From the NCBI GenBank assembly GCA_951406725.2, contig OX597826.1, positions 71,920,001 through 71,984,000 on the forward strand: a DNA stretch of 64,000 nucleotides, written 5' to 3'. This document shows, piece after piece, positions 16,961-27,445 of this stretch. The notes below the pieces were generated by a model that worked only from the letters and a program-made list of their open reading frames with translations, was not told the origin of the DNA and did no database searches. Made by a program: the position numbers and the translations under genes. Position 1 is the stretch's first letter, and each line of letters starts with the position of its first letter. This DNA is from Octopus vulgaris. Its lineage: Eukaryota.

Positions 16961-17134
16961 GATATGTATGTATGTATGTATGAATGTGTGTGTGTGTATA
17001 TATATATATAAGTCACAATATATGGATTCAGGTAATCTGGTGGTACTCATAAAAAACCCTCAATGTATCATTCTAGAAAACATAGAAATATATAGTGTGG
17101 TACAAGAGAAAATGATAAGGAGTGTATAAAGTGA

Positions 17135-17835
17135 TAAATAACACAAAAATAGCTTGATGAAATCTTATTTAATAATAAGAAAATTCTAAAATCATGACAA
17201 ATTGTTTCGTAACTTAAAAACATGTAAATAATTTATATTATTATATTTAATAGTAAGTAAATTATTTATGTGTCTGCATTATTTTGAAGAATTTTTTTCA
17301 TTTTATATTAATGCAGACGTGAGTAATTTATTTATTATTAAATAAAATAATATAAATTATTTACATGTTTTTAAGTTACAAAACAATTTGTTGTGATATT
17401 AGAATTTTCTTACTGTTAAATAAAATTTCATCAAACTATTTCTCTATCATTTATGACTACATATATATATATAGGTACTGTAAGTTTAGAGTGATAAGTG
17501 TAAGCACCTGTATATGCCAGATAGTGGCAGAGGTGAGAGAATATATCAAACATAAATTAAAAACAGAACACAAAGGATATCGTGGTACACATGTAATAAC
17601 AGATATACCTATGCTGATGTAATAACAGATTGTTTATAAAGCTTGAAACATGTGTACCACGATATCCTTTGTGTTCTGTTTTTAATTTGTTTTATATATA
17701 TATATAGTGTATGTGTCTCGTTTATATGCCAAATTTGCTACAGAATAGCATCCAAGGAACCACTCCCTACATGACGCTGAGCTTTCTCCAATGCTATCTC
17801 GCAGTAAATTTGGCATATAAATAAAACACATATTG
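17135..17835. repeat. Three consecutive AT-rich foldback elements (about 17140-17445, 17547-17695, 17705-17835)
   Basis: For example aattaaaaacagaacacaaaggatatcgtggtacacatg / catgtgtaccacgatatcctttgtgttctgtttttaatt, and tttatatgccaaattt / aaatttggcatataaa. Confidence 0.85.
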
Positions 17836-17996: not shown

Positions 17997-18126
17997 ATCG
18001 CTGCCATTCGTAAAGGATTGTTACAAGTAATTCCAGAAGATGTTCTTCGACTCACCACATGGCAGGAACTTGAGAAACGGGTATGTGGCGAGGCTGAGAT
18101 TACTGTGGAGGCTTTACAGAAAAGCG
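17997..18126 (+). CDS. HECTD3: HECTD3 coding exon 10
   Basis: atttcAG / G|GTGAGT; IAAIRKGLLQVIPEDVLRLTTWQELEKRVCGEAEITVEALQKS. Confidence 0.95.
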
Positions 18127-18425
18127 GTGAGTTCTACTACCATGACAGTCTGGATCTATGGACAGATTAATTATGTACACCATATTTTCCTGCATACAAG
18201 TCAATGTAGTGTTTAGTGTAAAAATGTAGTGCAAACATTCAACCATCGCTACTATCTTTTCAAATTCTGTTGTATTTCACATGGAATTTTCAGTCTCCCA
18301 AAATTGTCTTCGTGTATGAGCCAACCTATAAATATATATAAAAATATATGTAAATATGTATAAGTATAAATATAATGTATAAATATATATGATAGTTTAA
18401 AAGTTTTGAATTAATTATTCAAAGC

Positions 18426-18515
18426 ATCTTACGGTCGTTTCACAGAAGAGTTGTCCCTATAATGAAATCCTGTATTGATAAGCATTTATAGACAACGCTT
18501 CTGCTCTTCAGAGAT
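18426..18515 (-). ncRNA. Type-I hammerhead ribozyme motif with intact core
   Basis: AUCU-CUGAAGA-[GCAGAAGCGUUGUC...GACAACUCUUCUGU]-GAAAC-GACC-GUA^-AGAU: core, stem I (AUCU/AGAU) and a long stem II are all present. Confidence 0.75.
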
Positions 18516-18775
18516 ATAAAATATGAACATTGTATAACATATCGAATGATAGTTTTTTTTTTAAATATGAAGTAAAACTGTAAACTGGTGTTTGTTTGAA
18601 ATATAAATTAAAAATTACTGCTTTTGACGAGAGTCTTTAAATCCATATATACTTCCTTGGTTATTCTACTGTGATAATCCATAATATTCTTATGTAAAAT
18701 CCGTTATATTACCTTGTATTTTAAATATAGTTAGTTTAGAAATGTGAAATTTGTATAACATTTTGTCTGTAGATA

Positions 18776-19285
18776 AGGTGATGAGCTGGCAGAATCATTA
18801 CTGTGCTGGGAAAAAATGTTTAGTAGCATTTTGTATGTCTTTACTTTCTGAGTTCAAATCCCACCTTTTGGGGTCGATAAAATAAGTACCAGTTGAGTAC
18901 TGGGGTCAATATAATCGACTTATCACCTCCTCTGAAATTGCTGGCCTTGTGCCAAAACTTGAAAACCCCTTATGTCTGTAAATATAATTACCATATGCAT
19001 ATCATGTCGATGTAAATATCCTTTCTACATCTATACATGTGTAGACTCTTACATCTGTGTAAATATTTTTCTTTATTTCTTTATTGCTCTCAAGGGGCTA
19101 AACATAGAGGGGACAAAGAAGGACAGACAAAGGGATTAAGTCGATTACATCAACCCCAGTGCGTAACTGGTACTTAATTTATTGACCTCGAAAGGATGAA
19201 AGGCAAAGTTGACCTTGGCGGAATCTGAACTCGGAATGTAACAGCAGACGAAATACTGCTAAGCATTTCTGCCAGCTCGCCACCT
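18776..19285. mobile_element. Inverted pair of family A SINEs (18776-18965 +, 19074-19285 -)
   Basis: gagctggcagaatc...ggggtcgataaaataagtaccag and the reverse complement ctggtacttaatttattgacc...ttctgccagctc. Confidence 0.8.
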
Positions 19286-19397
19286 GTGTTTATATTTTTC
19301 TTGGCCATCTGTCTGTATATATGCATGCATAAAAATTTATTTAGGTGTAGATGTGTCTGTGTGTGTGTGTCCATTTTAATTTGTTGTCTGCTTACAG

Positions 19398-19551
19398 TCC
19401 ATCTTGTAGACCTGGAGCCTAATGACTTACAAGTGAAGCACTTCTGGGAAGCTGTGAAGAATTTTTCCAATGAAGACCGAAGTCGATTACTGCGTTTTGT
19501 TACTGGAAGACGGCGCCTCCCTGCTCCCATTTACCTTTCTTCTGCTAAACC
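19398..19551 (+). CDS. HECTD3: HECTD3 coding exon 11 (HECT C-lobe)
   Basis: cttacAG / CC|GTAAGT; [50 protein letters not shown]. Confidence 0.96.
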
Positions 19552-19627
19552 GTAAGTGCACAAACACACACATATATATGTACATATATGATGGGAATCT
19601 TGTAGTTTCCATCTCAGTAATTTCACT

Positions 19628-19703
19628 CACAAGTTCTTGGCTAGCCTGCAGCTTCAGTAGAAGGCACCTTCTACTAAAGCTGCAGGCTGGCCAAGAACTT
19701 GTG
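19628..19703. repeat. 76-nt near-perfect hairpin (37-bp arms)
   Basis: cacaagttcttggctagcctgcagcttcagtagaagg-ca-ccttctactaaagctgcaggctggccaagaacttgtg. Confidence 0.9.
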
Positions 19704-26658: not shown

Positions 26659-26902
26659 AGAATTTTTTGCGTAATAATATAAAAAAACCAAAGCTGTGTA
26701 GATATTAGAGCATTTATAGATAGAAGGTCTTACAGCTGTTTCCAGGATATTTATTAATTATATCCCTTCATCCTCTCACACCATCTCCGATGAAGGGATA
26801 TAATTAATAAATATCCTTGAAACACCTGTAAGACCTTCTATCTATAAATGCTCTAATATCTACACAGCCTTGGTTTTTTTATATTATTACGCAAAAAATT
26901 CT
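26659..26902. mobile_element. Near-perfect foldback element (~115-bp arms) carrying mirrored hammerhead-like motifs
   Basis: Right arm tct-ccgatga-agggatat(aattaataa)atatcctt-gaaac-acct-gta-aga; left-arm complement has gaaac-agct-gta-agacc; TA-flanked. Confidence 0.8.
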
Positions 26903-26944
26903 ATATATATATATACACACACACACATACACATATGTTTCTGT

Positions 26945-27445
26945 AGTGCTGATGCCATGTAAAAAGCACCTAGTCTCTCTGTAAAGTGGTTGGTGTTAGG
27001 AAGGGCATCCAGCCATAGACATTATGCCAAATCAGAGAGTGGAGCCTGGTCTGGCTTCCAGCCTTGCCAGCTCCTGTCAAACCGTCCAACCCTTGCCAGC
27101 ATGAAAAACAGACATTAAACGACAATGTGTGCCTTTGTGCTTGTGTCCTGTCACTTGAGAGCCAGTGTTGGTTTGTTCATATCCCTGTAACATACAACAG
27201 CTCAGCAAATAAGAATGCCAGACTGGGGTCATTTCAGTCAACTGAATCATGGCCAGCATTGCCATAGTCCAGTAGCTAAAACAAAAGAAGAGAAGTTGTG
27301 GCAGTGTGGTTAATATGTTTATTTCCCATCCAGATGGTTGTGGGTTCAGTCCCACTGCATGGCAACTTGGACATGGGTCTTCTTTTATAACCCTGAATCA
27401 ACCAAAGCTTTGTGAGTGGATTTGATATATAGAAACTGAAAGCAC
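26945..27445 (+). mobile_element. Family B SINE, family C tail fragment and family C head
   Basis: gttaggaagggcatccagcc; gggttcagtcccactgcatggcaacttgg. Confidence 0.65.

What the first reader, a model, noticed from the sequence alone, without database searches (positions are those of the whole stretch)
18426..18515. Intact-core hammerhead antisense in a HECTD3 intron
The minus strand reads AUCU CUGAAGA GCAGAAGCGUUGUC...GACAACUCUUCUGU GAAAC GACC GUA AGAU. All core nucleotides are present, stem II pairs at 13 of 14 positions (one is G-U), and stem I is 4 bp. Predicted cleavage is after GUA, between 18430 and 18429. The motif is antisense to the host, so it would not cut the pre-mRNA. It sits in an otherwise unexplained AT-rich block (about 18330-18770) that may be the rest of the element.
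Basis: partly seen in the sequence, partly recalled or inferred. Interest (0 to 1): 0.7.

Follow-up and report, generated by a model that had tools for sequence, protein, structure and literature searches.

The report
Hammerhead relic of Hydra-type Penelope retrotransposon
The hammerhead (self-cutting RNA) motif is really there, but it is one of hundreds of copies of the end of a Penelope-type jumping gene, a kind already described, that landed backwards in an octopus HECTD3 intron; it is predicted to cut only as a pair, and this lone copy has a private mutation in its pairing site, so it is likely a silent relic.

Summary
Observation confirmed. A type I hammerhead core lies at 18511-18430 on the minus strand, the only one in the window and beyond chance, in intron 18127-19397 of HECTD3. 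It is not a host feature. Bases 18327-18757 are a fragment, cut at both ends, of a dispersed repeat (668 candidates, 135 exact core matches against 0 controls). Full-length copies show the repeat is the pseudo-LTR flanking an RT plus C-terminal GIY-YIG ORF with the motifs of the Hydra clade of Penelope-like elements. The family's helix III is an 8-nt palindrome, the known device for cleavage as a dimer; sister families keep other palindromes (26 of 30 loci). This copy has a private U-to-C change in the palindrome, costing a computed 6.8 kcal/mol in the homodimer, and has no partner nearby. Known kind (Cervera 2014; Craig 2021, which lists an octopus Hydra family). The one unusual trait is a 63-nt helix II arm. 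The scan noted the same kind before on other octopus DNA. Cleavage and expression are untested.

The parts
18327..18757 (-). Solo fragment (431 bp) of the pseudo-LTR of a Hydra-clade Penelope-like element; truncated at both ends (327 nt before to 103 nt after the predicted cut); TATA at both edges
   Evidence: Shared extent with 29 other copies; matches both pseudo-LTRs of full-length copy L067 at 85-88%; edges
18512..18516 (-). Helix I, 5' strand (5 bp with a terminal G-U)
18505..18511 (-). Catalytic core C3-A9 (CUGAAGA)
18442..18504 (-). Helix II arm, 63 nt: 7 bp, 1x1 loop, 7 bp (last pair G-U), then a weaker distal part; first pair G10.1-U11.1
18439..18441 (-). Core G12-A13-A14
18431..18438 (-). 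Helix III / dimer palindrome, ACGACCGU here against ACGAUCGU in the family; the private change is at 18434
   Evidence: family-derived contigs of other runs carry the palindromic base at 18434
18429..18430 (-). Predicted cleavage site, after GUA (H17 = A at 18430)
   Evidence: Position; cleavage itself untested
18425..18429 (-). Helix I, 3' strand
17997..18126 (+). HECTD3 exon (HECT domain) upstream of the host intron
   Evidence: Pfam HECT E 1.2e-8; 100% to P0002 residues 694-737
18127..19397 (+). Host intron (GT...AG, 1271 bp); the element lies antisense in it
19398..19552 (+). HECTD3 exon downstream of the host intron (3' end approximate)
   Evidence: Pfam HECT E 1.2e-9

Best explanation
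The motif is the hammerhead carried in the pseudo-LTR of a Hydra-clade Penelope-like retrotransposon; a 431-bp piece of that repeat sits antisense in a HECTD3 intron and is likely a passive relic, predicted to be nearly inactive. Shown: the repeat flanks an RT plus GIY-YIG ORF on both sides in full-length copies, and its helix III is an 8-nt palindrome. Inferred from published work on this class: a transcript running through two pseudo-LTRs brings two hammerheads together, the palindromes pair into one shared helix III, and each is cut after GUA, which would release a unit-length RNA that may be closed into a circle. Inferred: the element's endonuclease nicks TA-rich DNA and its RT copies the RNA, usually stopping early, which leaves short solo fragments such as this one. 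Most fragments span the cut site, so the template was likely uncut or re-joined RNA. This copy has no partner hammerhead in the window, no ORF, lies on the strand opposite the host transcript and has a broken palindrome, so it would cut poorly even if transcribed.
For: Dispersed repeat: 668 first-look candidates, the 40 scored all 93-100% over 161 nt; 135 exact core-pattern matches against 0 reversed controls. Full-length copy L067: repeat, then ORF, then repeat, the two repeats 91.9% alike over 1216 nt. L031 has two pattern-matching copies 7.4 kb apart around an RT piece and an inserted LINE. 3 of the 11 fetched loci with RT 71-84% identical to the query carry the repeat within the 7.5 kb fetched (L062, L063, L067). 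ORF motifs RWK, DKT, GLYRDD, CxCX5C, CxxC and CxH are seen in family copies and all but RWK in unbroken sister-family frames, matching the Hydra definition (PMC8557442 section 11). The C-terminal domain's best sequence and fold matches are GIY-YIG nucleases (T4 EndoII E 0.007; I-TevI, EndoII and UvrC, prob 0.97-0.98 for the top three but E only 0.05-0.07). Palindrome intact in 24 of 30 nearest copies. 1880 matches against 1 control for a looser pattern covering sister families; 26 of its 30 fetched loci are palindromic with 4 different central 4-mers, and helices I and II differ in sequence yet pair. Computed active homodimer -46.0 kcal/mol here against -52.8 for the palindromic copy L002; active monomer fraction about 0.001. 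Inverted pairs in L033, L034 and L035 are typical of these elements.
Against: No cleavage assay and no raw RNA reads. Pfam names no RT or GIY-YIG domain in 4 family pieces or 4 sister ORFs; RT identity rests on motifs and on Atlas look-alikes at 0.93-0.96 with minority RVT_1 share. Clade was assigned by motifs, not by a tree. 8 of the 11 family-like RT loci showed no such repeat in the stretch fetched, and in L067 both hammerheads have C3 changed to G. Copy ends do not mark the cut: 0 of 30 upstream-selected copies end within 30 nt of it; 5 of 30 downstream-selected copies begin within 6 nt of it, but none of the 4 junctions displayed begins exactly there, and the query itself began 2 nt past the cut. 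Energies ignore tertiary contacts.
Confidence: 0.88

Rival explanations
1. A non-autonomous retrozyme or SINE-like element that only borrows Penelope enzymes and moves as a small circular RNA, with no coding parent of its own.
For: Most copies are short and ORF-less and nearly all span the cut site, as a circular template would give. A non-autonomous subfamily derived from the pseudo-LTR is not excluded.
Against: The same repeat flanks a family-specific ORF on both sides. 5' ends are ragged over more than 600 nt, as in 5' truncation. No head-to-tail monomer arrays were seen in the loci examined; close pairs were inverted.
Confidence: 0.06
2. An exapted ribozyme that cuts an antisense or read-through transcript and so regulates HECTD3, like the conserved intronic hammerheads of amniotes (recalled, not tested here).
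For: All 11 core bases are intact in this copy. Core positions differ less among 30 copies than flanks and distal arm together (2 of 330 against 133 of 3540 non-CpG cells, Fisher p 0.0008).
Against: The copy is only 3% (6 of 201) from the family majority, so an intact core is expected without selection (28 of 30 and 34 of 39 rows keep it). The lower core diversity can come from selection on source elements and from subfamily differences in AT-rich flanks. The one change in the ribozyme's functional part weakens the dimer. The motif is on the non-transcribed strand of the host gene.
Confidence: 0.03
3. A chance match in AT-rich intron DNA.
For: No Rfam hammerhead hit; unremarkable folding z-score of -1.12.
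Against: 0 strict hits in 100 shuffled windows; 135 against 0 and 1880 against 1 pattern matches; compensatory changes between families.
Confidence: 0.01

Closest known systems
Hammerheads of Hydra-clade Penelope-like elements (Craig et al. 2021, PMC8557442; section 11 read, Files S1 and S2 tables seen), including Hydra-1_oBim of Octopus bimaculoides
   Same: Type I hammerhead downstream of a single RT + C-terminal GIY-YIG ORF with RWK, DKT, CxCX5C, CxxC and CxH motifs; short self-complementary helix III; CUGAAGA core variant and GUA cleavage triplet occur in their table; ends in TA-rich DNA.
   Different: Another family: helices differ in sequence from the listed Hydra-1_oBim motif. Helix II plus loop is 63 nt here (51-63 in the families) against 10-24 nt in their 26 Hydra rows, by my count; two spike-moss PLE-X rows of the same table do have long arms. 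The motif lies about 840 nt after the stop codon and the unit is longer than 3 kb.
Minimal and small-palindrome hammerheads in pseudo-LTRs of metazoan Penelope-like elements (Cervera and De la Pena 2014, PMC4209133; parts 1-2 of 4 read)
   Same: Short helix I (4-5 bp), long helix II, palindromic helix III, mostly solo genomic copies from truncated elements, inverted pairs; dimer-dependent, low in vitro activity reported.
   Different: No unpaired base between A9 and 10.1; first helix II pair is G-U in most copies examined (24 U, 5 C, 1 G of 30) where the paper finds G-C highly conserved; 8-nt palindrome; much longer arm.
Metazoan non-LTR retrozymes (PMC7229834; search listing and start of abstract only)
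   Same: Type I hammerhead in a non-coding repeat of an invertebrate.
   Different: Here the repeat is the terminal repeat of a coding element, with ragged 5' ends and no tandem monomer arrays in the loci examined.

Membership tests
Type I hammerhead ribozyme | Conserved core CUGANGA, GAAA, UH around three helices, open end in helix I | tested here: met
   helix III only 2 bp as a monomer
Type I hammerhead ribozyme | Helices supported by compensatory change | tested here: met
   Between families helices I and II change sequence and still pair, and the palindrome changes in compensated pairs; no formal covariation statistic was run
Type I hammerhead ribozyme | Match to an Rfam hammerhead model | tested here: not met
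   the 63-nt arm and minimal helix III are the likely reason (inference)
Type I hammerhead ribozyme | Site-specific self-cleavage after NUH | not testable with these tools
   Needs an in vitro assay; copy ends give no clear footprint
PLE-associated dimeric hammerhead | Lies in the pseudo-LTR flanking a PLE ORF | tested here: met
   L067, L031, L062, L063; the window copy itself is solo
PLE-associated dimeric hammerhead | Palindromic helix III / loop 3 | tested here: met
   Met for the family (24 of 30); this copy pairs at 6 of 8 positions in a homodimer
PLE-associated dimeric hammerhead | G10.1-C11.1 pair | tested here: not met
   G-U in this copy and in 24 of 30 nearest copies; G-C in 5. A common trait in the paper, not an absolute one
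Hydra clade of Penelope-like elements | RWK and DKT motifs in the N-terminal part of the ORF | tested here: met
   MRWK and SDKT in L042, L043/L067, L044
Hydra clade of Penelope-like elements | C-terminal GIY-YIG endonuclease | tested here: met
   Top PDB sequence and fold matches are GIY-YIG nucleases, with weak E-values; Pfam gave no hit
Hydra clade of Penelope-like elements | [quoted passage not shown] | tested here: met
   Family pieces; sister ORFs L076-L078; absence of CCHH judged by eye on alignment A1
Hydra clade of Penelope-like elements | Insertion into (TA)n | tested here: met
   Many copies end in (TA)n runs; window copy has TATA at both edges; not counted against a control
Hydra clade of Penelope-like elements | RT groups with Hydra elements in a phylogeny | not tested
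   Reference Hydra proteins were not available as session sequences
Non-LTR retrozyme | Non-coding tandem monomers producing abundant circular RNA | tested here: not met
   Repeat flanks a coding ORF; no monomer arrays in loci examined; circular RNA not testable

The most novel reading that the evidence does not exclude
Octopus Hydra-type elements use a distinct long-armed hammerhead variant: a 51-63 nt helix II kept across families of unrelated sequence because it has a job of its own (docking the element's reverse transcriptase or replacing the usual loop I-loop II contact), with an 8-nt palindrome that lets thousands of scattered copies pair in trans and cut host read-through transcripts. 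This copy would then be a weakened member of that network.
Probability: 0.15. Interest if true: 0.55.

Novelty: new member of a known kind. Interest (0 to 1): 0.2.

Why it matters
Little as a single locus: it is one decayed insertion among hundreds and has no sign of a role in HECTD3. As a family it adds an octopus Hydra-type element with a long-armed hammerhead. It also offers natural pairs (palindromic against broken, G-C against G-U at the base of helix II) for testing dimer-dependent cleavage, whose role in Penelope-like transposition is still unproven.

Tried and rejected
Rfam scans: no hammerhead hit. Pfam on family and sister ORFs: no RT or GIY-YIG hit. ANAPC10 family search in the genome hit only another locus and did not help name the host gene; the Atlas did not name it either; the homolog search did. 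Expression: no RNA holder listed, and all runs were contigs, so strand, level and ends could not be read. Age of the insertion: no empty-site contig appeared in the displayed rows of 8 runs laid, but the tables were cut and swamped by neighbouring repeats, so presence or absence at the orthologous site is unknown. Footprint of cleavage in copy ends: no sharp pile-up. C1:70306000-70314500, taken as a possible full-length copy, held two opposite-strand repeat pieces and no ORF. Target-site duplication: cannot be told from the TATA at both edges. Lunse et al. (PMC5785218) is not held; I saw only its title and the review's statement that such motifs probably cleave as dimers (PMC6765202, passages). 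Sequence look-up of earlier scan notes found nothing. No covariance model was built. No complex prediction was run.

Full report
Observation. The minus strand at 18515-18426 reads as reported. Core C3-A9 is at 18511-18505, G12-A14 at 18441-18439, U16.1 at 18431 and H17 = A at 18430; 13 of 14 outer helix II positions pair, the first as G-U. Helix I can reach 5 bp; helix III is 2 bp with a 4-nt loop. A type I descriptor finds this as the only hit in the window, and 100 shuffled windows gave 2 loose hits and none with 7 stacked helix II pairs. Rfam does not recognise it and the overall folding z-score is only -1.12. The host is HECTD3: an upstream exon is 100% identical to a protein named Octopus vulgaris HECTD3-like, the protein maps in 13 colinear plus-strand pieces, and the flanking exons join in frame over a GT...AG intron at 18127-19397; a contig of run X9 holds both exons without the intron.

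It is a dispersed repeat. A 161-nt query gave 668 first-look candidates in the genome, of which 40 were scored, all 93-100% identical. A tight core pattern has 135 exact matches against 0 for the reversed control. Other copies run further on both sides. Their 5' ends are ragged over more than 600 nt; 3' ends cluster in a TA-rich stretch (20 of 30 at 193-253 nt past the predicted cut). The window copy stops 103 nt past the cut, so it is cut short at both ends, with TATA at each edge. It differs from the column majority at 6 of 201 positions. Contigs matching the family occur in runs of five labelled organisms.

The repeat is the pseudo-LTR of a Penelope-like element. Two pattern matches 7.4 kb apart on C8 enclose an RT fragment and an inserted LINE. 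That fragment retrieved a group of 71-84% identical RT loci and a much larger group near 50%. Of 11 loci of the first group fetched at 7.5 kb, 3 carry the repeat. L067 is full length: repeat, start codon about 400 nt past the cut once a 500-bp insertion is set aside, a broken ORF of about 3.1 kb, then the repeat again with the hammerhead about 840 nt after the stop. Its two repeats are 91.9% alike over 1216 nt and start inside the endonuclease region, a partial tandem. Inverted pairs occur in L033, L034 and L035. The ORF has RWK, DKT, GLYRDD, CxCX5C, CxxC and CxH motifs, the diagnostic set of the Hydra clade (PMC8557442 section 11). The C-terminal domain (model pLDDT 76.5) best matches I-TevI, T4 EndoII and UvrC GIY-YIG domains, with weak E-values. 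Pfam gave no RT or GIY-YIG hit; the Atlas look-alikes carry RVT_1 in a minority of members. No tree was built.

The palindrome. In 24 of the 30 nearest copies helix III is the perfect 8-nt palindrome ACGAUCGU; the window copy alone has C at 18434, and family-derived contigs in other runs carry the palindromic base. A looser pattern for sister families has 1880 matches against 1 control. That pattern fixes only purine and pyrimidine at the outer loop positions, so 8 of 64 allowed loops are palindromes, yet 26 of its 30 fetched loci are palindromic (these are copies of a few families, not independent events). By eye 86 of the 100 rows listed are palindromic, with 7 different 4-mers. Helices I and II differ wholly in sequence between families and still pair. 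One palindrome is shared by several families, which argues against a strict family code.

Mechanism. Cervera and De la Pena (PMC4209133, parts 1-2 of 4 read) describe such motifs in pseudo-LTRs, mostly as solo copies, with no monomer cleavage and low dimer cleavage for the one tested, and propose that they process the precursor RNA, perhaps into a circle. Nearest-neighbour energies agree: the active monomer is about 0.1% of the ensemble; the active homodimer is -52.8 kcal/mol for palindromic L002, -46.0 for this copy, and -48.1 for the mixed pair (tertiary contacts not modelled). Nearly all copies span the cut, so the copied RNA was uncut or re-joined (inference). Copy ends give no clear footprint of cleavage: 0 of 30 upstream-selected copies end within 30 nt of the cut; 5 of 30 downstream-selected copies begin within 6 nt of it, but the query began there and none of the 4 junctions displayed starts exactly at the cut.

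This copy. It is solo, ORF-less, antisense to the host and has a weakened palindrome and a G-U pair at the base of helix II. An intact core is the normal state at this age (28 of 30; 34 of 39 rows, two of them lacking the 3' half, some loci shared). Core positions vary less than flanks plus distal arm (2 of 330 against 133 of 3540, p 0.0008), but against the distal arm alone the gap is small (0.006 against 0.018), and selection on source elements explains it without any host role. Expression and insertion age could not be read from the contig-only runs.

Comparison and novelty. Craig et al. list an octopus Hydra family with a hammerhead (File S1 and S2 tables). This is another family with a 63-nt helix II arm, against 10-24 nt in their 26 Hydra rows by my count; two spike-moss rows there also have long arms. 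Five paper searches found no paper on this family or on a HECTD3 ribozyme (0 papers hold both terms); subscription journals, Repbase and Dfam were not searched, 58 of 59 parts of that supplement were not read, and Lunse et al. was not held, so long-armed variants may be in print. Earlier notes of this scan report the same kind in octopus DNA, including the long arm; they are unchecked and not counted as support. Verdict: a real hammerhead motif, a new member of a known kind, most likely a relic; interest 0.2.

Noticed in passing
window 17541-17701: Inverted repeat (54-nt arms, 93%) whose inner ends are a hammerhead-like helix III half (GAAAC-NNNN-GUA, near-palindromic) with no CUGANGA core within 110-130 nt; looks like a fold-back relic of another Penelope-like end.
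   Followed up: partly
window about 26700-26950: A second fold-back element with the same hammerhead-like 3' half on both arms (minus 26742 palindromic, plus 26819 one mismatch) around an internal hairpin, again with no 5' core nearby.
   Followed up: partly
window 17125-17463 and 19628-19703: Long inverted repeat (147-nt arms, 86%) and a near-perfect 37-bp hairpin; the latter gives a sub-threshold Rfam microRNA match. Probably MITE-like repeats.
   Followed up: no
window 18776-18965 and 19074-19285: Two inverted copies of a very abundant short repeat in the same intron (83% over 59-nt arms; depth in the millions); could form double-stranded RNA in the HECTD3 pre-mRNA.
   Followed up: no
G000, pattern (L076, L078, L081-L110): At least 1880 long-armed hammerheads from several families, many letter-identical (young) and often in inverted pairs; L076-L078 hold unbroken Hydra-type frames of 800-1090 codons, so sister families look much younger than this one.
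   Followed up: partly
L116 about 1500: A family copy folded back on itself with its centre of symmetry about 6-11 nt past the predicted cut, a hint that a cut RNA 5' end may seed inverted duplications; single case.
   Followed up: partly
L067 (G000:C2:153040500-153048000): Both pseudo-LTR hammerheads of this full-length copy carry C3-to-G, as does L008; whether G8 or activity compensates was not examined.
   Followed up: no
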